A stretch of DNA of 64,000 nucleotides from Tamlana algarum (GTDB lineage Bacteria > Bacteroidota > Bacteroidia > Flavobacteriales > Flavobacteriaceae): the NCBI GenBank assembly GCA_947495775.1, contig CANMAQ010000010.1:22693-86692 (forward strand), in the 5' to 3' direction. The position numbers were made by a program, and so were the translations under genes. The number at the start of each line of letters is the position of its first letter. The first letter of the stretch is position 1. Positions 18,955 through 30,653 of this stretch are shown here, one piece after another. Under the pieces are notes generated by a model that did no database searches, was not told the origin of the DNA, and saw only the letters and a program-made list of their open reading frames with translations.

Positions 18955-19822
18955 GATGTTAAGTACACGGTATTCTTTTTATAAATTACACATTGCAAGT
19001 TGTTTTAAAGACAGCTTAACACCTGTTTTATTAGGCATGGTATTGCTCATTTATGGCTTTTCGCATGCACAATACAATATCCCTAAAAAGCCAAAATTAC
19101 AAACAAGTGTCTATGATGAGGTGCAACTTTTATCGGCATCTCAAAATAAAAGTTTAGAACAAAAACTTTTAAACTATGCCGATTCTACCTCTACCCAAAT
19201 TGTAGTTGCCATTATAAGCTCTACGCAAGGCGAAAACATCAATTATTTGGGAGCCCAATGGGGACAAGCTTGGGGTATCGGCCAAGCTAAGGAGGATAAT
19301 GGCATCTTAATTTTATTAGCCAAAAATGACCGTAAAATTGCTATCAACACGGGATATGGTGTAGAACACCTATTAACAGACGCGCTCTCTAAACGCATCA
19401 TTACCAGAGATATCATTCCGTTCTTTAAACAGAATAATTATTATGGCGGATTGAACAATGGTATCAACTCCATTTTCAAAGTCATGAATGGGGAATATAA
19501 GGCGAAGCGCAAACCTAAAGCGCGCAACGAGTTTCCTATTGGCCTTATCTTCCTTCTTGTATTTATATTTATCATCATTTTAGTTTCTATTTCTAAAAAT
19601 AAACGCGGCGGCGGCGGACGTAATGGGGGCCGCAGGTCTAACTCTTCAGATATTCTCGAAGCTATTATATTAAGTGGCATGGGGCGCGGTAGTTATAACC
19701 GTGGTTCTTCTAGGGGCTGGGGTTCTGGTGGTGGTTGGTCTTCTGGTGGTAGTGGCGGTGGCTTTAGTGGTGGTTTCGGCGGCGGAGGTTTCGGCGGCGG
19801 CGGTGCTTCTGGAAGTTGGTGA
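18935..19822 (+). CDS. TPM domain membrane protein (YgcG-like) with Gly-rich tail; start uncertain
   Basis: TSTQIVVA, WGIGQAKEDNGILIL, TGYGVE, TM helix, GGGFGGGGASGSW terminus. Confidence 0.9.
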   Translation: MKFLRAKMLSTRYSFYKLHIASCFKDSLTPVLLGMVLLIYGFSHAQYNIPKKPKLQTSVYDEVQLLSASQNKSLEQKLLNYADSTSTQIVVAIISSTQGENINYLGAQWGQAWGIGQAKEDNGILILLAKNDRKIAINTGYGVEHLLTDALSKRIITRDIIPFFKQNNYYGGLNNGINSIFKVMNGEYKAKRKPKARNEFPIGLIFLLVFIFIIILVSISKNKRGGGGRNGGRRSNSSDILEAIILSGMGRGSYNRGSSRGWGSGGGWSSGGSGGGFSGGFGGGGFGGGGASGSW

Positions 19823-19855
19823 TTTGTCAACTTATTTTATGAACTAGCACATAAC

Positions 19856-21646
19856 CTACTTCCCCCTTTCATTTAACATTTCTAGATATTTAAAAACAAA
19901 AGGCGTTTTAATTTTTTGACGCACGACTTCTAGTCGCGCTTTCGAATACACATAAAATGCTAACATATATTCGCTTACGCTTTGAGATATCATGAGATCG
20001 AAAACTAACCCCTCAGAAACGCCATAATGTGCTTTAAAACCATCTATTCCTGCATCGCGTTCTCGACTCGCCTTTATTTTAGGTATTTCATTTTTATACC
20101 TCTTATAAAATTCTTTTTCAAACCCTCCACAAATTTGTTTGAATACGTTTACTGCTGTAGTTGCTTCGCCTTCGTGTCGATAGTTAAGGCTCTTTATAAA
20201 ATTTTGTTCTTCTAGACTAATACTATCACGTGCTTTTAAATACCTAGCTACACTGGCTGAAATACTTTTATTCTTTATAAAATCCCCCAATGTTTCACCG
20301 TAATATTTTAAATAGTTCTCGCGATGTTCGTTAATAATTTGGGCTTGTGCTTCTACTATAGAAAGCGGCAATCTCTCATTTAATCTACCAATTTTTCTAT
20401 AGACTTCTAATAAATACACCTCTTGGTCTGTTAACGTATACCCTATTTCCTGTAAAGCATTACCTATTTCTGGGAGGTCTAATCTAGCCCCCTTTTTTCT
20501 AAATAAACGTTTTTTATGTCCTAATCGATCTATAAAATCATAATAATTTTTAGACAAAACAGCTACTTCCTTTTTTAAATGGGTTTCATTTATAAAATTA
20601 TAATAGCCTTTTTTTACCCTAACCTTTTTATAAGGTTTTTTGCTTTCCCCATTCTTTATTTTTTTGTTTTCTCTCACTAGTGTAAATCTATATCTTTGAT
20701 ATTCTAAAATATTACAAAGTGTTTTATAGTCTATATCTAAGGTTTTAATTTGAAAAGCTTTAGCACATATAGCATATTTATTTTTAATCGCTTTTAATTG
20801 TTGTTTTGCTGCATCTCGTTTATCAAAACACAATTTCTTATAGACTTTTGGAGACATTGTACCTATTCGCTCTATAACGTTGTGCATTTGAAGTACGTCA
20901 TCTAAATCTACCAAATTTAAATCTGAATTTATTTGCGCACAATCCCCCATAAAATAAGACGCTTTATCTTGAACAACATGAAACGTTTCTTTATCTGGAA
21001 TCACAAAAACATGCATTTGATAATGCGGTAATTTAATCTTTACTTGTTGTGGGTGTGTCACAGGAAATACTGTAGAAAAATATCCGTTTGGTGTTATTTC
21101 TGCCTTATACGTTTCTTCTACACCAGTAATTATGTTATTCACTAAAACAATAATGCCTTCATTCGTTTTTCCCTGCGTTTCATAGTCTACAATTACACCC
21201 GAATACATCACCATTCCACTTTTAAACAATGTGCCTTTATAGGGTATATCGTTTTTCTCTTTATATCTTGAATTTGCTTTAGGCTTAAGACTGTACATTT
21301 TTAAATTGTTTGGTGTATCACCAATGTATGCCTTTTTATTTCTTTTTAATTCTGCATAAATATGTTTTTCTTCGTTATTGTTTTGTAAAGTAATTTTTAT
21401 ACGTTTCCCATTGACATCTACTGACTTATAATCCCATATTTTGCGACTAAAAACGGCCTTTTTAGTATAAAAACCATAATAAAATTGACGACTGCCATCT
21501 GCTAAAAGCCAACTTCCTATTAATTCGTCTGGCAATTGCACTACCGCATCTTGAATTTTAGATATACTTTGCGATATAACTAATGTCTTAACAAACAGCA
21601 AAGCCATTAACAATAGGCTCTGTTTACTTTTTTTTACTGTTATCAT
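19856..21646 (-). CDS. secreted protein, Y + Z + helical domains; thioredoxin-less paralogue of the upstream TlpA-like protein
   Basis: ATG at 21646 preferred (the ORF track starts at TTG 21670). Signal-like N-terminus, LPDELIGSW domain, middle region aligns with 21679..23841. Confidence 0.8.
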   Translation of the reverse strand: MITVKKSKQSLLLMALLFVKTLVISQSISKIQDAVVQLPDELIGSWLLADGSRQFYYGFYTKKAVFSRKIWDYKSVDVNGKRIKITLQNNNEEKHIYAELKRNKKAYIGDTPNNLKMYSLKPKANSRYKEKNDIPYKGTLFKSGMVMYSGVIVDYETQGKTNEGIIVLVNNIITGVEETYKAEITPNGYFSTVFPVTHPQQVKIKLPHYQMHVFVIPDKETFHVVQDKASYFMGDCAQINSDLNLVDLDDVLQMHNVIERIGTMSPKVYKKLCFDKRDAAKQQLKAIKNKYAICAKAFQIKTLDIDYKTLCNILEYQRYRFTLVRENKKIKNGESKKPYKKVRVKKGYYNFINETHLKKEVAVLSKNYYDFIDRLGHKKRLFRKKGARLDLPEIGNALQEIGYTLTDQEVYLLEVYRKIGRLNERLPLSIVEAQAQIINEHRENYLKYYGETLGDFIKNKSISASVARYLKARDSISLEEQNFIKSLNYRHEGEATTAVNVFKQICGGFEKEFYKRYKNEIPKIKASRERDAGIDGFKAHYGVSEGLVFDLMISQSVSEYMLAFYVYSKARLEVVRQKIKTPFVFKYLEMLNERGK

Positions 21647-21678
21647 AATTAAATTAAAAAGCGTAAACAATTATCGAT

Positions 21679-23841
21679 CTATTTATAGGTTTCTAAAATA
21701 GTGTCGAGTTGCTCATTAAAACGATACATAGAAAAATTGGTATTCACTACATTACCGTTTTTATCTACCAAAATATAACGCGGTATCCCATTGAATTCAA
21801 ACAATTGTCGTAAATAATTAAATTCATCTTCAGACAAACGTGTTGTATTTTTTAAGTCTTGATCTGCTATAAAAGCATTATATTTTTTTTCGGGAGATGA
21901 CTCGCCTGTTATAAAAACAAAATCAAAATCGTTTTGATTAGCATATTTCTTACGCGTCTCTTCCATATTCTTAATTCCAAAAACACAAGGCCCACACCAA
22001 GTCGCCCAGAAATCTACAAACACTATTTTACCTTTATGAGGCGCTATTATCTTTTCAAAGATAGATTTACCCTTACCTTCTGGTAAATCATGTACAGTAG
22101 GTTCTATTTTCGCAGTATGACGCGCTTTACCATCTATTCCTGTTTTAGACATTTGCGGTATATTAGGGTACATTTTAGCCACAAAACGCGCACCTTCTTC
22201 CTTTAAAAAAGGGTGTTTTATCTGCGCACTTAAAGCCTCCCAATAGGTCTTGGCGTTTTCCGCATTATTAATTTGTTTTAAATCGTAATCTAGCGCTCTA
22301 ATTTTTGTAACATCGTAAACTAAACCTTTAGCTTTATGAAACGTATTAACAAGTACGGAGTCTCTTAAACGCCATTTCTCAAGCAAAAAATTACCCGCAC
22401 CATCTTCACGTAAAGGCGTCACGTATTTTGCAACGTAGTCTACATGTGCTTTCTTGTAAATAGCACTAAATTTATCGAAATGCGCATAATATTCTTTTGT
22501 CGATACGATTTTCTTACTGCTACGGCTGGCTTGATGCGCTTTATCTGCCGCTGTTATCGTAATACCTTCTTCTTCAAGATAGGTTTCAAATGTTGTTTTG
22601 GACCGTATAATATCACGTTTAGGTGAAACAATTAGAGGATTAGAAAATTCTAAACGGTTAATAAATTTTGAAAAATCTTCTAATACCAAAAGACTTTTAG
22701 CATTAAAATCAATATTCTGTAAAAAATCATAATACGATGCATCTGCTGTAGTCTTTAACACTAAATTAGTGCTATCCTTTTCTAGAGCCCTACTTCTTCT
22801 CTTTTCAAAATCTATCAAGTTACTTGCATTTGCCATTTCATTTTTATGCCGCAACAAAATCGCAGATTTAGAATTTGGTTTTATATTATGCGCCTTTAAA
22901 TAAGCCTCTATTTTTGCCTCATTGCGTTTATAAATTGCAAGTTGACGCTTTTTAAATATTTTTGGTTTTAATGTTGTTATGTGTTTTTTAAAGTTACGGC
23001 CAGACATTCGTATCAATCGAAATGCAGATAATTCTTTAGCTGTTTCTGCTAAAGCCCCTAAATAGTAATTTTTAGCACCAACTATAACTGCAAGAGTTTG
23101 TTCGGGTTCTAAGTACACTGAACACCTTTTTATCTTACCAAATTTTAATGAAAAAGAAGAGGGATGCGACAGTGGCACATCAATTTCAAAACGTCCATTT
23201 TCAGCAACGGGCACCACAATAGGGTATTGTTCTCTTGTAACCTTATTTTTAGCATATATTATACCTGTTTTAAATCCTAATCGAGAAGAATACCCTTTTA
23301 TATATCCCACTAATCGCCCTTTGTTTTTATTAAAAAAAGCATCTGTTGTGTAATCTTTTAAAGGCGCTTTGGTAGGCGTTGACACCTCTTTATCTAACCA
23401 AGTCTTCACAGCTTTTGGAACAGCTTTATCCTTTTCTCCTAAAAAAGCAGCATATATAAACCAACTTTTCTTTGTTTTACCCGAAATAAAATCAATCCAT
23501 TTTGTTTCAGGTTTTAACTTAGGAAATTGTAATGTATACGAAAGCACTCCTGTGCTGGGCATTGTATTTTTTGCCCCTAAACGAATGCCCTCTGCCTTAA
23601 TAACCTTTAATTCTATTTGAGTCGCAACATCTACGATGTAAGCATTTTGATGCTCTGGAAGTGTTTCCCCTGGCTTTCCTTTAAGCTTAAAATACACCAA
23701 CGTACTTTGCGCTAAAACTTCCACTTTAACAATATCTCCAGGATAATTATTAATTCCTAAATCTGGACGCTCTATTATTTTTTGGCTATATACTAGGCTG
23801 CAGTACAAACTTAATAGTAGCATGAGGTATTTAACATTCAC
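21679..23841 (-). CDS. large TlpA-family thiol-disulfide oxidoreductase (X + Z + helical + thioredoxin domains)
   Basis: GTG start, signal peptide (LVYS|Q), C-terminal GKIVFVDFWATWCGPC and GIPRYILVDKNG. Confidence 0.88.
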   Translation of the reverse strand: MNVKYLMLLLSLYCSLVYSQKIIERPDLGINNYPGDIVKVEVLAQSTLVYFKLKGKPGETLPEHQNAYIVDVATQIELKVIKAEGIRLGAKNTMPSTGVLSYTLQFPKLKPETKWIDFISGKTKKSWFIYAAFLGEKDKAVPKAVKTWLDKEVSTPTKAPLKDYTTDAFFNKNKGRLVGYIKGYSSRLGFKTGIIYAKNKVTREQYPIVVPVAENGRFEIDVPLSHPSSFSLKFGKIKRCSVYLEPEQTLAVIVGAKNYYLGALAETAKELSAFRLIRMSGRNFKKHITTLKPKIFKKRQLAIYKRNEAKIEAYLKAHNIKPNSKSAILLRHKNEMANASNLIDFEKRRSRALEKDSTNLVLKTTADASYYDFLQNIDFNAKSLLVLEDFSKFINRLEFSNPLIVSPKRDIIRSKTTFETYLEEEGITITAADKAHQASRSSKKIVSTKEYYAHFDKFSAIYKKAHVDYVAKYVTPLREDGAGNFLLEKWRLRDSVLVNTFHKAKGLVYDVTKIRALDYDLKQINNAENAKTYWEALSAQIKHPFLKEEGARFVAKMYPNIPQMSKTGIDGKARHTAKIEPTVHDLPEGKGKSIFEKIIAPHKGKIVFVDFWATWCGPCVFGIKNMEETRKKYANQNDFDFVFITGESSPEKKYNAFIADQDLKNTTRLSEDEFNYLRQLFEFNGIPRYILVDKNGNVVNTNFSMYRFNEQLDTILETYK

Positions 23842-23855
23842 AATCGATATGGGTT

Positions 23856-24068
23856 TTAAATTACATTTTCAGGAGCAGTCTTTACGTATTCTAAACTATG
23901 CAAAAAACATTTATTTTCAACTTGTTTTCTTGAAAGTAATTTATATTTCGCACTACTGCTTGCTTCAATATTTATAGGCTCTACTGCAATATTTTTTGCT
24001 TTAGGAGCGCATCTACTAGATAAACACAGCAATAATAAGATTACAAATTTCATTAAAGTTGACATCAT
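23856..24068 (-). CDS. small putative lipoprotein (70 aa)
   Basis: MKFVILLLLCLSSRC signal-like N-terminus; lies 15 nt before the TlpA-like gene. Confidence 0.5.
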   Translation of the reverse strand: MMSTLMKFVILLLLCLSSRCAPKAKNIAVEPINIEASSSAKYKLLSRKQVENKCFLHSLEYVKTAPENVI

Positions 24069-24264
24069 AGGATTCCTTTCAATTTAGTTTTTTCCTAAAT
24101 TGATATTATATTTAAACATTTTAGTGTTACTGTACAGCAATCTACATGCACTACTATTTGAGTGCTATAATTGTACTAAATATAAACATCTCAATTAGTT
24201 AAATACAGCAACAATTAGTCCATTGCAGTGTTTACTTAGAATTCTATCCTATTTATCTAGAATT

Positions 24265-25017
24265 TTATTTTAAAGACACCAACAGGTTTAATGTTTGCTC
24301 TTTCCTTTGTTTAGAGACATTTACCTTACTTCCATCCTTCATTAAGATATAACCTCCATCTTTTTTAACATAGGATTTTACATAGTTTTTGTTAACTAAA
24401 TGCGATTGATGTGTTCTAATAAAAGCATGACCTGCCAACAAGTTGTCCCATTCTTTTAGTGTACGAGACACCAATATGGAGGTTTCATCTGCAAGGTAAA
24501 ACATGGTGTAATTATTCTCTCCTTTGCAGCGCACAATATCATCTACTGCCACAAAAAAAAGTTGTTCGGCTGTTGGAAGTGCTATTTTTTGAGGTGCGTT
24601 AACACTTCTTAAATTCTCAACCAACATTTTTAATTTTTCATTTTCTTTTTGACTGTATACAATGTCGGTTACCTTTGCTACGGCACTGGTTAATTCATCG
24701 ATAGCAATAGGCTTCATTAAATAATCTAAAGCACATGATTTGATCGCTTTTAAAACATATTTGCTATAGGCCGTGACAAATATAATTTGAAAATCAACTT
24801 TATCTAAACTTTCTAGCATAGCAAACCCATTCATCTTAGGCATTTCAATATCTAAAAAAACAAGATCTGGAGCTTCACTTAGAATTAGAGTTTTTCCTTC
24901 TTTAGCCGATGCTCCCATACCAACAACTGTAATATTAGGACAATTCAAAATCAATAAACGCTTAAGATTTTCTAAATTATGAGGTTCGTCGTCTATTATA
25001 ACACATTTAATTTGCAT
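24265..25017 (-). CDS. LytTR-family response regulator
   Basis: IIDDE, VFLDIEMP, FVTAY, DYLMKP, C-terminal FIRTHQSHLVN. Confidence 0.95.
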   Translation of the reverse strand: MQIKCVIIDDEPHNLENLKRLLILNCPNITVVGMGASAKEGKTLILSEAPDLVFLDIEMPKMNGFAMLESLDKVDFQIIFVTAYSKYVLKAIKSCALDYLMKPIAIDELTSAVAKVTDIVYSQKENEKLKMLVENLRSVNAPQKIALPTAEQLFFVAVDDIVRCKGENNYTMFYLADETSILVSRTLKEWDNLLAGHAFIRTHQSHLVNKNYVKSYVKKDGGYILMKDGSKVNVSKQRKEQTLNLLVSLK

Positions 25018-25040
25018 ACTAAATCTTTAATTTACGTTTA

Positions 25041-26384
25041 CTAATATTTTAAAGGCAACCTTATCTCAACTCTTGTTCCTGTTAACTTACTATCTTTTGC
25101 AGAAAGGTCTACAATTTTAATTTCTACATCTGTTTTATAGCTATCCTTGATAAGTTGTATTCTATCCTCAGCTAATTTAAGTCCATAAGGCGCCCTATCT
25201 ATTCCTAAATTCTTTTTCTCCTTCAGTGTTGCGTTTATACCTATACCATTATCTTCAATGATAGACAACAGGCTGCCTTTTACTATTTCAAACTTCAAAA
25301 TCAAATGTTTTTCTCCTTCCGTTTCTTTTAGTCCATGAATAATGGCATTCTCAACATAAGGTTGAATTAACATTGCAGGAATTTCTGTTTGATATATATC
25401 TACATTAGTATCTACTTTAATACAGTAATTAAAAAAAAACCGCAATTTCTCCAACTCTAGATACTTTTGTATAGACTCCAACTCATCCTCCAGAGGCACT
25501 ACTCCTTTTTCCGACTTGTCTAATGTTAACCGCATTAACTGTGCAAATTGAGTTAAATAGTGATTGGCCTTTTCTGTATCATTTTTATTTATAAGATTTT
25601 GAATCGCACTTAAGGCATTAAATAAGAAATGAGGATTCATTTGAGAACGTATACTTTTCAACTCCATCTCAACCAATACACGTTTGGTCATTTCCTTTTT
25701 CTTTGTGATTCCTATTTTCATTCTAAAAACATAATAGGTTATAAGCATAACCAATAAAATAAACAATAGTATACTATGTGTTTTGTATTTTTCAAAAAAT
25801 GAAGCTTTTTTAAAAATTTTTATTTCTGAAAAGTTTGTATTTAAATAATGGCCTCTTTTATTCAAAAAATTATGAATCAAACTATATACTCCGTTATGGT
25901 AAGCTATAATTTTATAATTAACTTCATTAGCAGAAAACACATTATCTATTCGATAAAACGTATCTAAAAATAGAATCCCTTCTTCTTTTAATATTATCTT
26001 TTGCGTCTTTAAATACCATTCATCTATTATAAATTCAGGCAATCTATTTTGCTTTACAAACTTTAATTTGGTGAGTACTTTTATATTATCACCTGTATCT
26101 AAATACAATTTTGATGTACTTATTTTTTCTGTATTAAGATATTTAATACCATATTTATAAACACATGTAAAGTATGTTTTCTTTCGTTCTGTTACAATAT
26201 CATTATAAGAATAGAGCTGATCTTCTATAACTATGTAATCTCGTGAAATGATAAGTACAATGTCCTCTTTATCATCAACCCATGCCCCAATAATATGATC
26301 TGGCAAATCAGATGGAACTCTACTTCTTGCTTGTCCTAAGCCTACATATGGCACTAAAATAAAAAAGAATATAAGTAGTCGCAT
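25041..26384 (-). CDS. LytS/YehU-type sensor histidine kinase with a tandem-Y periplasmic region
   Basis: Signal peptide, TM (HSILLFILLVMLITYYVF), RSQMNPHFLFNAL, IQPYVENAIIHG, IEDNGIG. Confidence 0.93.
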   Translation of the reverse strand: MRLLIFFFILVPYVGLGQARSRVPSDLPDHIIGAWVDDKEDIVLIISRDYIVIEDQLYSYNDIVTERKKTYFTCVYKYGIKYLNTEKISTSKLYLDTGDNIKVLTKLKFVKQNRLPEFIIDEWYLKTQKIILKEEGILFLDTFYRIDNVFSANEVNYKIIAYHNGVYSLIHNFLNKRGHYLNTNFSEIKIFKKASFFEKYKTHSILLFILLVMLITYYVFRMKIGITKKKEMTKRVLVEMELKSIRSQMNPHFLFNALSAIQNLINKNDTEKANHYLTQFAQLMRLTLDKSEKGVVPLEDELESIQKYLELEKLRFFFNYCIKVDTNVDIYQTEIPAMLIQPYVENAIIHGLKETEGEKHLILKFEIVKGSLLSIIEDNGIGINATLKEKKNLGIDRAPYGLKLAEDRIQLIKDSYKTDVEIKIVDLSAKDSKLTGTRVEIRLPLKY

Positions 26385-26401
26385 TCGTTTCTAAAGTCTA
26401 T

Positions 26402-27505
26402 TTAGTTTGTAGTGTTCACTTTTTTATAAACAGTATCCTTTCTTCCTCTAGGATACAATTCGTAATTCCCATTTACTTGCCTAACATAAAACAGTTTATA
26501 AGTTCCTTTATGATACAGAACAAACGAAATTAAAGTTCCACCTTCTGAAGTGCTAATATAGTCTATGTGATGTTTCTCTATGCGTTCTGCTTTTTCATGA
26601 TCTTCGTCTGACATCAAAAAAGAATCCTCGGTCACCCTTATCTGTTTTAATTCTTCACCGTGTAACCATGTTCCTTGAAGTCGTCCAGGCACTTTTTGTA
26701 AATGAACACCTTTTTTTAAAGTCTCCATTCGATTTGTTCTAAGCGTCATGACATCGCCTTTTAAACTTAAAATCTCTATAACATTGAATGATGTTTCTAT
26801 TTGGTATTTTAAGACCCCTGTTTCCTGAATATTGAGATAGTATTGCACTCTTGAATTAAGTACAACATAATCTGGTGTAGCTATAAATAATAATGTTCCA
26901 AATTTATCATACCAGCTCCCGAAAAGCTGCTCTGGCAAATCTTTAGGTAACAGCGTCGTCTTTGAATTTATCAATAATGCCGATTCGTTATGGTTCTCTT
27001 TATTTTTATAGCGAATAATCGATTTCCTATAGTTTCGTACGCTATTCTCTATTTTGGAATTATCATAACGCTTCAAAAAATCTCTACCATTTTTAGTAAG
27101 ATTAAGCTTGTATATATACCAATTACCACCTGGATTAGACTCTCCATAATTTATCCTTCTCACCTCTTTTTTCAAAGGTGGAAAACACAAACGATACCTT
27201 AGTTCATCTGTATCTGGAATAACCGTTCTTACTCCAACATCAAGTTCTTCTGCTTTTACGACATAAATCTTAGACCCCTTTCCTGAAGCATCTTCTATAT
27301 AGGTTTCTTTAGGGATCGTAATATAATTCCCCCTTGGAAGCTTAACTAAAAAATGTAAAATGGTTGCACTAGAATTCACTTCTATTTTAGTTACAATAGC
27401 ACTAAAATTTTTTGAAACATAATCCGGATTGTAAACCACTTTTTGTGCAAAACTAATTTGAATAACACATAAAGTAACCCATAGAGCTACACCTATTTTA
27501 ATCAT
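26402..27505 (-). CDS. secreted protein, X + Y + Y domains
   Basis: Signal peptide (QISFA|Q). The N-domain aligns with the TlpA-like N-domain; two LP..L.G.W repeats align with the kinase sensor region. Confidence 0.85.
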   Translation of the reverse strand: MIKIGVALWVTLCVIQISFAQKVVYNPDYVSKNFSAIVTKIEVNSSATILHFLVKLPRGNYITIPKETYIEDASGKGSKIYVVKAEELDVGVRTVIPDTDELRYRLCFPPLKKEVRRINYGESNPGGNWYIYKLNLTKNGRDFLKRYDNSKIENSVRNYRKSIIRYKNKENHNESALLINSKTTLLPKDLPEQLFGSWYDKFGTLLFIATPDYVVLNSRVQYYLNIQETGVLKYQIETSFNVIEILSLKGDVMTLRTNRMETLKKGVHLQKVPGRLQGTWLHGEELKQIRVTEDSFLMSDEDHEKAERIEKHHIDYISTSEGGTLISFVLYHKGTYKLFYVRQVNGNYELYPRGRKDTVYKKVNTTN

Positions 27506-27617
27506 AAAGACTGTAATTGAATAACAAATATAATCGCTAAATCAATAACACATCCATTCAATTAGAATTCTAACACTATAAATGAGTAAAACACAACTTT
27601 TAAAGAGCGCTATTTAA

Positions 27618-29102: not shown

Positions 29103-30653
29103 TTATTTCGAATAGATATTTAGTTTTCCATCTTCAGGAAATTCGTTGGACACCACTAAAAGTGTTTTACCATTAGGACTATCGACAGCAGGGATTATAA
29201 GTAATCCTTCTGGTGAAGTATTTCTTAAACGCTGTACAAATATTGGATTATGTACATCTGTGATGTTGTACACTAAAACATCGCCACTACGTTCTAACCC
29301 TATTACAGCAAACGTATTACCACCTTCTTCATAAGTAGTTACGGCTTCTGGTTCTGTACCTTTATCATCTGATCTGCCCTCGGGGTAACTGCCAAAATCG
29401 AAAAGTGTTTTTAGTGTAAATTCATTTCCTGAATCGAATACCAAATCACCTGTAGTACTCCAAATGGAAAAAGAACGCCCCCCATAGCCATAAATTTCGT
29501 CAAAATCGCCATCGCCATCAGTATCACCATTAGCAGTCGTTACTTTTAAACGTCCTAAATTTTCTTCTTGCTGTAACTCTGCTGCATTTGGAAATGCTTC
29601 AGGATCCAGATTTAAATCGTCACCGCGCGCTTCCTCAGAATAGCCCTCATAATCTCTAGCATCACCTTCGTTAGCAGAAATTATATATCCAGTGCCCGCA
29701 ACTTCAAAATACGCAATGGCATCGGGCTGATAATAACTTAATACAGGCCATGTATTAAGGTTACCAACACGATCGTCTCTGTTGCTCACATCAAAAAACG
29801 TTTCAGAAAAATCTTTTGTACCTAATGGATAAATAGCGGTTATCGTTTTAGAAGCTATATCTAATTTTGCGATGCCATTATTTTCTTGTAATGCAATAAA
29901 AGCGGTTTTAGAATCTGATGCTACGGCAATATATTCGGGTTCTACGTCTGCACTTAAATTAGCGCCTGGTCCAAATACACGAAACCCTTGGGCTTCTAAT
30001 ACTGCTTCTTGGGAATTAAAGGCATTAAAAGAAATTTGAGACACTGCTTTAGTCGCCACTTCTATTAAGGTTATAGAACCTTCTGGATCTATAGAGTATG
30101 CATCGTTAGGCTCGCCTTCATTAGCTGCAATAATATACTTTGCATCTGGCGTAAAAGTAATCATATCTGGCAGAGCACCAGCGTTAGCTTCTAAATATGG
30201 TATTGTAAGATTATCTGTTTTAAAAACAATAATCTTTCCGTTATCTGTAGACGTTTCTGCTTCTACTGCAAGCGCTAAAAAGCCATTTTTACTGGCTACA
30301 GAATTTATATTCCCGCCAAAAGCTGTAATATCTATAGGGTTTTGAAGTTGAGGGGCATTAACTTCGGCAATACGAATAACTTCTACCTGTTTGGCGCCAG
30401 CATTTGTAGCATATAGTGTTTGAGTTGTTGCATCATAAGTAGAGATTTCTGGTGTGCCTTCTACAAATTCCACGCTTGCTTGTGTTGTAAAAAGGGAAAC
30501 CCCCTGTCCGTTTTCTCCATCTTGTCCATCTTGCCCATTAGCGCCATCCAGTCCATTAGCGCCATCCATGCCATCGTCGGCACATGAAGATACTATTATA
30601 AAAAGCCCTAGAAATAACGATTTAATTACTGTTAATACGTTTTTAAGTGTCAT
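29103..30653 (-). CDS. choice-of-anchor I (alkaline-phosphatase-associated beta-propeller) lipoprotein with collagen-like repeats
   Basis: Lipobox SSC-ADD, Gly-X-Y run GMDGANGLDGANGQDGQDGENGQG, GALPDM, ANEGEP, EPEYIA, GRSDDKGTEPE. Confidence 0.85.
   Translation of the reverse strand: MTLKNVLTVIKSLFLGLFIIVSSCADDGMDGANGLDGANGQDGQDGENGQGVSLFTTQASVEFVEGTPEISTYDATTQTLYATNAGAKQVEVIRIAEVNAPQLQNPIDITAFGGNINSVASKNGFLALAVEAETSTDNGKIIVFKTDNLTIPYLEANAGALPDMITFTPDAKYIIAANEGEPNDAYSIDPEGSITLIEVATKAVSQISFNAFNSQEAVLEAQGFRVFGPGANLSADVEPEYIAVASDSKTAFIALQENNGIAKLDIASKTITAIYPLGTKDFSETFFDVSNRDDRVGNLNTWPVLSYYQPDAIAYFEVAGTGYIISANEGDARDYEGYSEEARGDDLNLDPEAFPNAAELQQEENLGRLKVTTANGDTDGDGDFDEIYGYGGRSFSIWSTTGDLVFDSGNEFTLKTLFDFGSYPEGRSDDKGTEPEAVTTYEEGGNTFAVIGLERSGDVLVYNITDVHNPIFVQRLRNTSPEGLLIIPAVDSPNGKTLLVVSNEFPEDGKLNIYSK

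What the first reader, a model, noticed from the sequence alone, without database searches (positions are those of the whole stretch)
25800..26950. The kinase sensor region is a copy of the Y-Y tandem in the secreted protein encoded just upstream
Seen: kinase Y1 PSDLPDHIIGAWVDDKEDIVLIISRDYIVIEDQLYSY aligns with A Y1 PKDLPEQLFGSWYDKFGTLLFIATPDYVVLNSRVQYY. Kinase Y2 LPEFIIDEW...YRIDNV...IIAYHNGVYSL aligns with A Y2 VPGRLQGTW...HHIDYI...FVLYHKGTYKL. A third protein (F) begins with QLPDELIGSW. A cleavable-looking signal peptide plus one TM places the kinase Y-Y in the periplasm. Inference: A is a soluble decoy or co-receptor that competes with, or pairs with, the sensor. This is not a Cache, PAS, 7TM or Reg_prop sensor type that I recognise.
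Basis: partly seen in the sequence, partly recalled or inferred. Interest (0 to 1): 0.78.

Follow-up and report, generated by a model that had tools for sequence, protein, structure and literature searches.

The report
Kinase sensor duplicated as secreted partner
A marine flavobacterial sensor kinase detects its signal with two small lipocalin-like barrels of a previously undescribed family, and the gene just upstream encodes a secreted protein carrying an old copy of the same pair, so the two most likely work together as receptor and soluble partner.

Summary
Kinase residues 21-200 and protein A residues 184-367 are collinear homologues: BLASTP E 7e-7, profile-profile E 1.4e-26 over 168 columns.

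AlphaFold (pLDDT 93) models the kinase ectodomain as two 8-stranded beta-barrels, each opening with an LPxxLxGxW motif. The only convincing PDB fold matches are bacterial lipocalin-like proteins, and they are weak. Pfam, NCBIfam and PDB sequences give no match. An exhaustive profile search of 1.84 billion representative proteins finds 57 hits. Almost all are PF06580 kinases with 2-6 units, small secreted YY proteins, or large TlpA-like thioredoxin fusions.

In 17 of 18 distinct loci (Flavobacteriaceae plus one Carboxylicivirga) a secreted YY protein sits directly upstream of the YY kinase and its LytTR regulator.

Three direct repeats with a 21-bp period precede A. A second set follows the regulator gene, ahead of the variable cargo (here T and F). 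These are the only two such sites in the 64-kb window. This implies autoregulation plus control of the cargo.

A recombination breakpoint in the regulator's inter-domain linker places A, the kinase and the receiver domain in one input module.

The decoy or co-receptor role of A is plausible but untested. The ligand is unknown.

The parts
27554..27613 (-). Promoter element upstream of A: three hexamer cores (CTCTTT, CTCATT, CTAATT) with an exact 21-bp period, followed by a Bacteroidetes-type -7 box (TATATTTG). Presumed LytTR regulator binding array, implying autoregulation.
   Evidence: The same array lies 101-109 nt before the A start in 12 of 13 distinct loci; in L008 the search placed it one 21-bp period further upstream, at -123. 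A PWM built only from other loci scores this site 20.3 bits. The next best site in the window apart from the two arrays scores 3.8, and shuffled sequence scores at most 13.2.
26402..27505 (-). Protein A (367 aa). Signal peptide 1-20 with cleavage ...SFA|QK; X beta-sandwich about 20-140 (27448-27086); disordered linker about 141-183; YY tandem 184-367 (26956-26405).
   Evidence: ORF. No Pfam or NCBIfam hit. AlphaFold pLDDT 72, showing a beta-sandwich, a linker below pLDDT 50, then two barrels. X is 30% identical to the N-terminus of T, E 4e-15. Only 12 homologue clusters were found by word-indexed search of 5.8 billion clusters.
25785..26324 (-). Kinase ectodomain, the YY tandem (residues 21-200). 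Y1 = 21-108 (26324-26061) and Y2 = 109-200 (26060-25785). Each is predicted as an 8-stranded barrel that opens with LPxxLxGxW.
   Evidence: AlphaFold pLDDT 93.4, pTM 0.87, eight strands per unit. Foldseek matches: Tp0751 (5jk2) probability 1.00, target-normalised TM-score (TMt) 0.59; YxeF (2joz) 0.97; BT_0869 lipocalin-like (3hty) 0.91. Profile comparison with A YY gives E 1.4e-26.
25041..26384 (-). Sensor histidine kinase (447 aa). Signal-like segment 1-18; YY 21-200; transmembrane helix about 203-225 (25778-25710); PF06580 His_kinase 240-316 (25667-25437); HATPase_c-like 340-446.
   Evidence: PF06580 E 5e-25; HATPase_c is weak at E 0.0036. About 48 full-length orthologues exist, mostly Flavobacteriaceae.
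24265..25017 (-). Response regulator: receiver domain plus LytTR DNA-binding domain. A recombination breakpoint lies in the inter-domain linker, near 24600.
   Evidence: Response_reg E 8e-21 and LytTR E 2e-17. The receiver domain is 93% identical to L003 and 79% to L007. The LytTR domain is 97% identical to L007 and 82% to L003.
24207..24266 (-). Second triple direct-repeat array (CTAGAT, CTAAGT, CTAATT; 21-bp period), starting at the regulator's stop codon and followed by a -7-like box. Presumed regulated promoter of the cargo operon.
   Evidence: PWM score 23.1 bits, the top site in the window. The array is conserved at the same place in 10 of 13 loci whatever the downstream gene is.
23856..24068 (-). 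Small ORF (70 aa) with a hydrophobic N-terminus, lying between the cargo promoter and T. Status uncertain.
   Evidence: ORF. It is interrupted earlier in the near-identical L007 sequence, and L003 has an unrelated ORF at this position.
21679..23841 (-). T (720 aa): signal peptide, X domain (shared with A), a middle region of about 400 aa of unknown family, and a C-terminal TlpA/ResA-like thioredoxin domain with WCGPC.
   Evidence: Thioredoxin_8 and Redoxin hits at 604-701. TlpA and ResA models match below their cut-offs. X-domain homology.
19856..21670 (-). F (604 aa): signal peptide, one Y-like unit (about residues 40-125, 21553-21296), then the same middle region as T. It has no thioredoxin domain.
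   Evidence: F residues 158-383 match T residues 179-397, E 2e-8. The Y-like unit matches kinase Y1 at probability 88%, E 3e-6. In other loci one protein carries X, the Y-like unit, the middle region and the thioredoxin domain together.

Best explanation
This is a conserved three-gene signalling cassette of marine Bacteroidota.

The kinase belongs to the PF06580 (LytS/YehU-type) family and probably crosses the membrane once. Its periplasmic part is a tandem of two small 8-stranded lipocalin-like barrels (YY), a sensor-domain family not described before. The gene directly upstream encodes a Sec-exported soluble protein, A. A carries an anciently duplicated copy of the same tandem. In most Flavobacteriaceae the tandem sits behind a beta-sandwich (X) and a flexible linker.

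The LytTR regulator most likely binds arrays of three direct repeats spaced 21 bp apart. One array precedes A, so A, kinase and regulator would be auto-induced together. The other array follows the regulator gene and would switch on variable envelope cargo. Here the cargo is T, a TlpA-like thiol-disulfide oxidoreductase fusion, and F. Elsewhere it is an outer-membrane barrel.

My preferred mechanism is that A acts as the kinase's periplasmic partner through the shared module. Both keep the same conserved aromatic core, so A either binds the same ligand class or docks on the kinase ectodomain as a pseudo-dimer partner. Because the system induces A itself, A would set feedback: as a ligand buffer or decoy (negative), or as a co-receptor (positive).

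Shown: the homology, the predicted fold, the rarity, the synteny, the repeat arrays and the modular inheritance. Inferred: regulator binding to the repeats, A-kinase contact, the direction of feedback and the ligand.
For: Homology: BLASTP E 7e-7; profile-profile E 1.4e-26, collinear.

Fold: AlphaFold pLDDT 93.4. The only high-probability PDB matches are lipocalin-like proteins. Tp0751 is described as a non-canonical lipocalin in PMC5040251.

No known family.

Rarity and restricted contexts: 57 hits among 1.84 billion representatives. These are PF06580 kinases, X+YY or YY-only secreted proteins, and Y(n)-thioredoxin fusions.

Synteny: the order A, kinase, regulator holds in all 14 distinct Flavobacteriaceae loci including the window. 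It also holds in Formosa haliotis, Gaetbulibacter and Carboxylicivirga, where the upstream protein is X+YY or YY-only.

Age of the duplication: A-A identity averages 44%, kinase-kinase 40%, and A-kinase 22%, with no excess within a locus.

Shared residues: L/P/G/W of the N-terminal motif, Y50, Y60, I63, W123, Y162 and Y167 (kinase numbering) are conserved in both families. One position is conserved in both but with opposite charge: kinase D96 against A R256.

Repeat arrays. LytTR regulators are known to bind direct repeats upstream of promoters (AgrA, PMC4227749).

Modular inheritance: A, the kinase and the receiver domain group with one lineage. The LytTR domain, the cargo promoter, T and F group with another, at 95-100% nucleotide identity.
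Against: No interaction, ligand or expression data exist. Only marine metagenome DNA runs hold this sequence.

A-kinase identity is not higher within a locus than between loci, so there is no sign of co-variation at the level of overall identity.

The Saprospiraceae kinases with 4-5 Y units have no stand-alone YY gene next to them. The partner is therefore not obligatory for every Y-type kinase.

Y units also sit on T- and F-type proteins, so sharing the module with the sensor is not unique to A.

The Foldseek E-values are weak (0.03-0.3).
Confidence: 0.55

Rival explanations
1. A is a regulated effector and not a signalling component. The Y unit is a substrate- or ligand-recognition module used by the products of the regulon (A, F, and the Y-thioredoxin fusions) and by the sensor. 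The kinase therefore detects the same thing that the effectors bind or act on. A would sequester or carry that molecule in the periplasm without touching the kinase.
For: Y units occur at the N-terminus of 1000-1233 aa TlpA-like oxidoreductases, and in F- and T-type cargo proteins of the same loci. Other PF06580 kinases use a whole T-like ectodomain of DUF4369-like, helical and AhpC/Redoxin parts (P0065, P0066, P0088). Thioredoxin genes flank the kinase even in Carboxylicivirga and Saprospiraceae.
Against: A is always in the input operon, upstream of the kinase. It is never among the variable cargo downstream of the second promoter. It is inherited with the kinase and the receiver domain, not with the output module. 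A keeps the whole tandem in the same order as the kinase, whereas cargo proteins carry a more divergent single unit.
Confidence: 0.3
2. Ligand-free mimicry. YY is mainly a dimerisation module. A docks on the kinase ectodomain in place of the second kinase subunit and holds the kinase off or on, in the manner of CpxP on CpxA. The real signal acts by titrating or degrading A.
For: One homologous position is conserved with opposite charge in the two families (kinase D96, A R256). That would favour hetero- over homo-pairing across a pseudo-symmetric interface. A is auto-induced with the kinase. CpxP-CpxA and QseG-QseE are precedents for accessory proteins that contact the sensor domain (PMC4160245, PMC12691602).
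Against: No interface model could be computed. The conserved aromatic set common to both families looks like a barrel core or pocket more than a surface patch, although this could not be mapped in 3D.
Confidence: 0.12
3. The similarity is chance or compositional, arising from AT-rich, Lys/Asn/Ile/Tyr-rich proteins, and there is no real shared domain.
For: Pairwise identity is only 23%, and the genome is about 32% G+C in this region.
Against: The profile-profile E-value is 1.4e-26 over 168 collinear columns, with unit-to-unit correspondence. The shared profile gives a confident AlphaFold model. The profile retrieves both protein classes specifically from 1.84 billion sequences.
Confidence: 0.01

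Closest known systems
LytS/YehU-BtsS-type two-component systems (PF06580 kinase plus LytTR regulator)
   Same: The transmitter module is the same: PF06580 with the NPHF histidine box, then a GHKL ATPase. It is paired with a receiver-LytTR regulator, and the presumed binding sites are phased direct repeats.
   Different: LytS, BtsS and YpdA sense through a multi-pass 5TM-LYT membrane domain. This kinase has one transmembrane helix and a periplasmic tandem of beta-barrels with no Pfam match. The cassette also has a third conserved member, A.
Kinase accessory proteins: CpxP-CpxA, QseG-QseE, ZraP-ZraS
   Same: An exported protein is encoded with, or regulated by, the system and is thought to act on the periplasmic sensor. 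CpxP and ZraP are themselves induced by their systems, which gives feedback (PMC4160245, PMC12691602, PMC8534201).
   Different: None of those accessory proteins is a paralogue of its kinase's own sensor domain. Here the partner carries the same two-unit module in the same order.
VtrA/VtrC and ToxR/ToxS co-component sensors
   Same: They use a periplasmic lipocalin-like 8-stranded barrel as the ligand-binding input of a transmembrane signalling system. The barrel protein is encoded next to the signalling protein (PMC9214523).
   Different: Those are one-component membrane-bound transcription factors. Their barrel sits on a separate membrane-anchored protein and pairs with a non-homologous domain. 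There is no sequence relation. Here the barrels are fused to a histidine kinase and also duplicated in a soluble protein.
Bacterial lipocalin-like proteins (Tp0751, YxeF, BT_0869) in the calycin-type fold
   Same: Each is an 8-stranded meander barrel of about 90-120 residues. These are the best structural matches. The GxW motif on the first strand resembles the lipocalin signature.
   Different: There is no sequence or profile match to any lipocalin Pfam family. No C-terminal helix is predicted. The units are shorter (about 85-90 aa) and arranged in tandem. No ligand is known.
Soluble decoy receptors of eukaryotes (e.g. osteoprotegerin, sFlt-1)
   Same: A secreted paralogue of a receptor ectodomain could compete for the ligand.
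   Different: This is only a functional analogy. There is no evidence here for competition.

Membership tests
PF06580-type (LytS/YehU family) sensor histidine kinase | His_kinase (PF06580) dimerisation and phospho-acceptor domain with a conserved His | tested here: met
   PF06580 E 5.4e-25 at residues 240-316, with the motif QMNPHFLFN present.
PF06580-type (LytS/YehU family) sensor histidine kinase | GHKL ATPase domain (HATPase_c) | tested here: inconclusive
   PF02518 scores E 0.0036 and 18 bits, below the 26.4-bit cut-off. Many orthologues carry a precomputed PF02518 hit. The ENAIIHG and DNGIGI motifs are visible in the sequence.
PF06580-type (LytS/YehU family) sensor histidine kinase | 5TM-LYT multi-pass membrane sensor of LytS, BtsS and YpdA proper | tested here: not met
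   There is no such Pfam hit. The protein has one internal hydrophobic helix and a 180-residue extracytoplasmic region. It shares the transmitter family but is not a LytS orthologue.
LytTR response regulator | Receiver domain plus LytTR DNA-binding domain | tested here: met
   Response_reg E 8e-21 and LytTR E 2e-17.
LytTR response regulator | Binds phased direct repeats upstream of its target promoters | not testable with these tools
   Conserved triple repeats with a 21-bp period lie at both promoters, which is consistent. Binding itself is inferred.
Lipocalin / calycin-like fold | Eight-stranded antiparallel meander barrel | tested here: met
   Met for the prediction only. AlphaFold gives pLDDT 93.4 with eight strands per unit. 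Foldseek probability is 0.91-1.00 to Tp0751, YxeF and BT_0869, with TMt 0.46-0.59.
Lipocalin / calycin-like fold | Sequence membership of a lipocalin family (any Pfam Lipocalin or Lipocalin_2-like model) | tested here: not met
   None of the 51 aligned members hits such a family at E<=1. A profile search of PDB sequences finds none.
Lipocalin / calycin-like fold | GxW on the first strand and a C-terminal helix packed on the barrel | tested here: inconclusive
   G33-x-W35 and W123 are nearly invariant. In the window's Y2 the Gly is replaced (DEW). No C-terminal helix is predicted beyond a 4-residue turn before the transmembrane helix.
Known extracytoplasmic sensor domains (Cache, PAS, 4HB, CHASE, Reg_prop / Pfam Y_Y_Y, 7TMR-DISM) | A match to the corresponding Pfam model | tested here: not met
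There is no hit in the window kinase or in any of the 51 members. Other PF06580 kinases do carry PF07494 and PF07495, so the test can detect them.
Kinase accessory-protein systems (CpxP-like) | Exported protein co-encoded with the system and induced by it | tested here: met
   Met by inference. A has a signal peptide. It lies 17 bp upstream of the kinase. The arrangement is conserved in 17 of 18 loci. A conserved repeat array precedes A.
Kinase accessory-protein systems (CpxP-like) | Physical contact with the kinase sensor domain that changes its output | not testable with these tools
   No complex prediction or experiment was available.

The most novel reading that the evidence does not exclude
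This would be a previously unrecognised type of bacterial receptor system. The sensor kinase and an auto-induced soluble paralogue of its own ectodomain, both tandem lipocalin-like barrels, form a receptor/decoy or receptor/co-receptor pair. The pair reads a hydrophobic or envelope-derived cue and governs periplasmic TlpA-like thiol-oxidoreductases that carry the same recognition unit. The input module (A, kinase, receiver domain) and the output module (LytTR domain, promoter, cargo) would be swapped independently between lineages by recombination at the regulator's inter-domain linker.
Probability: 0.3. Interest if true: 0.78.

Novelty: new variant of a known kind. Interest (0 to 1): 0.62.

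Why it matters
Most Bacteroidota two-component systems of the PF06580/LytTR type have no known signal. This finding defines a new extracytoplasmic sensor-domain family with a confident fold model. It is a rare case where the kinase's own sensor module is duplicated as a secreted operon partner. It also comes with a predicted operator and a predicted regulon of envelope thiol-oxidoreductase fusions and outer-membrane barrels.

That makes concrete experiments possible: binding assays, reporter fusions and ligand fishing from the barrels. It also offers a natural example of input and output modules of a signalling system being exchanged at a domain boundary.

Tried and rejected
- Searching the 184-aa sensor fragment alone in the word-indexed 5.8-billion-cluster database returned nothing, not even the parent protein. 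I treat this as a tool limitation. The full-length query worked.
- The mixed YY alignment had no stretch conserved enough for a genome scan. I used the A alignment instead.
- Foldseek with the full-length A model gave only low-probability multi-domain noise, so X remains an unclassified beta-sandwich.
- The look-up of the Wenyingzhuangia kinase P0035 found no record.
- No RNA runs hold the locus, so co-transcription and start sites could not be checked.
- I considered the single periplasmic Cys in Y1 (FTCV) as a redox switch linked to the thioredoxin cargo. I rejected it as a general mechanism because it is Cys in only 37 of 48 orthologues and is replaced by A, G, L, I or Y in the rest.
- I considered A as an X-mediated adaptor between T and the kinase. 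This cannot be general, because several loci have A with X but no T-like protein, and distant loci have YY-only partners.
- The generic sigma-70 promoter and terminator scan gave counts no different from shuffled sequence and was not used.
- Cluster look-ups gave no taxon names for the multi-Y kinases or the Y-thioredoxin fusions.
Full report
**Anatomy**

The region holds five co-oriented genes on the minus strand.
- A: 27505..26402, 367 aa.
- A histidine kinase: 26384..25041, 447 aa, starting 17 bp after A.
- A response regulator: 25017..24265, starting 23 bp after the kinase.
- After a 423-bp gap, T: 23841..21679, 720 aa.
- F: 21670..19856, 604 aa, starting 8 bp after T.

Pfam recognises only some of this. 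In the kinase it finds the transmitter (PF06580, E 5e-25) and a weak HATPase_c. In the regulator it finds Response_reg plus LytTR. In T it finds a C-terminal TlpA/ResA-like thioredoxin domain with WCGPC. Nothing matches A, the first 200 residues of the kinase, F, or the first 590 residues of T, and NCBIfam agrees. The flanking genes are housekeeping: der and era upstream; LemA, TPM-domain genes and alaS downstream.

**Check of the observation**

BLASTP aligns kinase 23-169 with A 186-338 at 23% identity, E 7e-7. I collected 48 full-length kinase orthologues and 12 A homologues.

Profile-profile comparison of the two ectodomain sets gives probability 99.7%, E 1.4e-26, over 168 collinear columns. 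Y1 pairs with Y1 (E 4e-17) and Y2 with Y2 (E 8e-16). The two kinase units are related to each other at E 1.5e-6. So the tandem arose before it was copied between the two genes.

F's N-terminus is a single, more distant unit: probability 88%, E 3e-6 against kinase Y1. In other loci the same unit sits between the X domain and the middle region of T-like proteins.

A's N-terminal domain X is homologous to the N-terminus of T (30% identity, E 4e-15). T and F share their middle region (E 2e-8). The five genes are therefore built from a small pool of shuffled extracytoplasmic modules.

**Fold and family**

AlphaFold on a 51-sequence alignment gives a very confident model of kinase 21-200 (pLDDT 93.4, pTM 0.87). 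It shows two domains of eight beta-strands, each preceded by a short helical turn that carries LPxxL, then GxW on the first strand.

Foldseek against the PDB finds nothing at E<=0.001. The only matches with high probability are single-domain hits to bacterial lipocalin-like proteins:
- Treponema Tp0751: probability 1.00, TMt 0.59. It is described as a non-canonical lipocalin (PMC5040251).
- B. subtilis YxeF: probability 0.97.
- Bacteroides BT_0869 'lipocalin-like': probability 0.91.

None of the 51 sequences hits any Pfam family at E<=1 in a consistent way. A profile search of all PDB sequences is empty apart from two chance-level hits.

I therefore call the unit lipocalin-like in fold but not a member of any described lipocalin family.

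The AlphaFold model of A is of moderate quality (pLDDT 72). It shows a beta-sandwich X, a disordered 40-residue linker and the two barrels. Its fold search was uninformative.

**Topology**

A, T, F and the kinase all have an N-terminal hydrophobic segment followed by Gln...SFA|QK...VYS|QK...VIS|QS and ...GLG|QA. That Gln is nearly invariant in the kinase orthologues. In Bacteroidota, signal peptidase I substrates typically expose an N-terminal Gln (PMC5837995, PMC10653852). Cleavage itself is not shown.

A has no lipobox and no T9SS C-terminal domain, so it is most simply periplasmic and soluble. Some YY-only relatives do have a lipobox.

**Distribution**

An exhaustive HMMER search of 1.84 billion representative proteins with the YY profile returns only 57 proteins at E<=0.001. 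Apart from a few repetitive surface proteins that are probably spurious, they fall into a few classes:
- A-like X+YY proteins of about 350-375 aa.
- Short secreted or lipoprotein YY or YYYY proteins.
- PF06580 kinases with 2-6 units.
- Proteins of 685-1233 aa with N-terminal Y units, usually the T-type middle region, and a C-terminal Redoxin/Thioredoxin_8 domain.
- One F-like protein (P0160) with Y units and the middle region but no thioredoxin domain.

The unit is thus rare. It is tied almost exclusively to this kinase family and to TlpA-like oxidoreductase fusions.

Conversely, some PF06580 kinases use a whole T-like ectodomain of DUF4369-like, helical and AhpC/Redoxin parts (P0065, P0066, P0088).

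**Gene neighbourhood**

Scanning one genome per species (185,579 species) for A finds 11 loci, all Flavobacteriaceae. With the metagenomic loci and the window this gives 14 distinct loci. All of them have the order A(X+YY), kinase(YY), LytTR regulator on one strand. Two Formosa loci have small extra secreted genes inserted between A and the kinase.

More distant kinases tell the same story:
- Formosa haliotis has an X+YY gene directly upstream.
- Gaetbulibacter and Carboxylicivirga (a different order) have YY-only proteins directly upstream.
- A Saprospiraceae kinase with 4-5 units has a DUF4369-AhpC/TSA thioredoxin gene upstream instead, and no stand-alone YY.

So 17 of 18 loci pair a secreted YY protein with the YY kinase, and X is optional.

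Identity values show two old clades without gene conversion. A-A averages 44%, kinase-kinase 40%, and A-kinase 22%. The within-locus A-kinase value (21.8%) equals the between-locus value (22.4%).

Residues conserved in both clades are the LPxxLPxxxxGxW motif, Y50, Y60, I63, L104, P116, W123, Y162, G165, Y167, L181 and K193. One position is conserved in both but with opposite charge: kinase D96 against A R256. I flag this as a lead for a hetero-interface, nothing more.

**Regulation**

Phylogenetic footprinting shows three hexamer cores (consensus CT[A/C]A[T/G]T) with an exact 21-bp period upstream of A in all 13 compared loci. In 12 the array starts 101-109 nt before the A start codon; in L008 the search placed it one period further upstream, at -123. 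A Bacteroidetes-type -7 box (TAnnTTTG; promoter consensus from general knowledge) follows the third core by roughly 30-45 nt.

The same triple array starts at the regulator's stop codon in 10 of 13 loci. It is there whatever gene follows: T-F here, an outer-membrane barrel with CarbopepD_reg_2 and OMP_b-brl_3, or other thioredoxin proteins.

A weight matrix built only from other loci finds exactly two sites in the 64-kb window: 24207-24266 at 23.1 bits and 27554-27613 at 20.3 bits. The next best site scores 3.8, and shuffled sequence scores at most 13.2.

LytTR regulators such as AgrA bind as dimers to direct repeats just upstream of their promoters (PMC4227749). A 9-bp repeat with a 12-bp spacer, which gives a 21-bp period, is the classic geometry; this detail is from my own knowledge. 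I infer that the regulator auto-induces A-kinase-regulator and activates the adjacent cargo. Binding is not shown.

**Modular inheritance**

I compared the window with a Hyunsoonleella MAG (L007).
- Flanks are about 80-88% identical at the nucleotide level.
- A, the kinase and the 5' two-thirds of the regulator gene are only 55-81% identical.
- From about position 24600 through T and F to about 19800, identity is 91-100%, mostly 95% or higher.

At the protein level:
- The receiver domain is 93% identical to L003 and 79% to L007.
- The LytTR domain is 97% identical to L007 and 82% to L003.
- T is 97% identical to L007 and 70% to L003.

The breakpoint therefore lies in the regulator's inter-domain linker. 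A, the kinase and the receiver domain travel together as an input module. The DNA-binding domain, its promoter and the cargo travel as an output module. This is independent support that A belongs with the sensor and not with the cargo.

**Interpretation**

The facts fit a signalling cassette in which A is the periplasmic partner of the kinase through a shared tandem barrel module. Because A is in the auto-induced operon, it would provide feedback. Either it sequesters the ligand or blocks the sensor (decoy or inhibitor, as CpxP does for CpxA, PMC4160245), or it presents the ligand (co-receptor).

The main rival is that A is simply a regulated binding protein that shares a recognition unit with the sensor, as the Y-bearing oxidoreductases do. 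The position of A in the input operon, the conservation of the full tandem, and the co-inheritance argue mildly against that rival.

The ligand is unknown. The fold suggests a small hydrophobic molecule. The tight link to TlpA-like thiol-disulfide oxidoreductases and outer-membrane barrels suggests an envelope-related cue. Both are inferences.

**Comparison with known systems**

The transmitter and regulator are ordinary members of the PF06580/LytTR class, but the input is not the 5TM-LYT domain of LytS or BtsS. Accessory proteins of kinases are known (CpxP, QseG, ZraP; PMC8534201, PMC12691602), but none is a paralogue of its kinase's sensor. Lipocalin-like periplasmic sensors are known in the VtrA/VtrC and ToxR/ToxS co-component systems (PMC9214523), but those are one-component systems without sequence relation to this one. 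A broad review of kinase sensing does not mention lipocalin-type sensors at all (PMC8534201). I therefore rate this as a new variant of a known kind, carrying a new domain family.

**Limits**

There are no expression data, no complex prediction, and no access to model coordinates for cavity analysis. The fold-match statistics are weak. The taxonomy of the multi-unit kinases and fusions is unknown.

Noticed in passing
window 19800-24600 versus 24600-27580 (compared with L007 and L003): The locus is a recombination mosaic. The LytTR-domain half of the regulator gene, the cargo promoter, T and F are 91-100% (mostly >=95%) identical to a Hyunsoonleella MAG whose flanks are only about 85% identical. 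A, the kinase and the receiver domain are closer to a different lineage (L003, L006). The breakpoint falls in the regulator's inter-domain linker.
   Followed up: yes
P0065, P0066, P0088 (kinases): Other PF06580 kinases have an ectodomain built like T: a DUF4369-like beta domain, a long helical region and an AhpC/Redoxin thioredoxin fold. So whole oxidoreductase-type modules are also used as kinase sensors in Bacteroidota.
   Followed up: partly
window 23856-24068 (-): A 70-aa ORF with a hydrophobic N-terminus is the first ORF after the regulated cargo promoter. In the 95-98% identical L007 sequence it stops earlier, and L003 has an unrelated ORF there. It may be a small exported peptide or may not be a gene.
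   Followed up: partly
L001, L002, L005, L011, L012, L016, L017 downstream of the regulator: The cargo at the same chromosomal site (between der and the TPM/LemA genes) varies. It can be a 908-939 aa outer-membrane barrel (CarbopepD_reg_2 plus OMP_b-brl_3), a 924-926 aa protein with no Pfam family (faint MG2), or X-Y-middle-thioredoxin fusions. All lie behind the same triple-repeat promoter.
   Followed up: partly
L008 11186-11884; L014 11135-12005: In two Formosa species, one or two small secreted proteins of unknown family are inserted between A and the kinase.
   Followed up: no
window 21679-23841 (T) residues about 172-586, and F residues 151-604: A shared middle region of about 400 residues in T and F has no Pfam, NCBIfam or other annotation. 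It recurs in the 1000-1233 aa Y-thioredoxin fusions, so it is an uncharacterised module of TlpA-like envelope proteins.
   Followed up: partly
window 29103-30653 (-): A choice-of-anchor I domain protein (516 aa) has an N-terminal collagen-like run (GxDGxNGxDGQDGENG). It sits between era and der.
   Followed up: no
L017 (Formosa haliotis) flanks: The YY cassette there is surrounded by oxidative-stress-type genes (catalase, a CCP_MauG peroxidase, MbnP). This could be coincidence or a hint about the cue.
   Followed up: no
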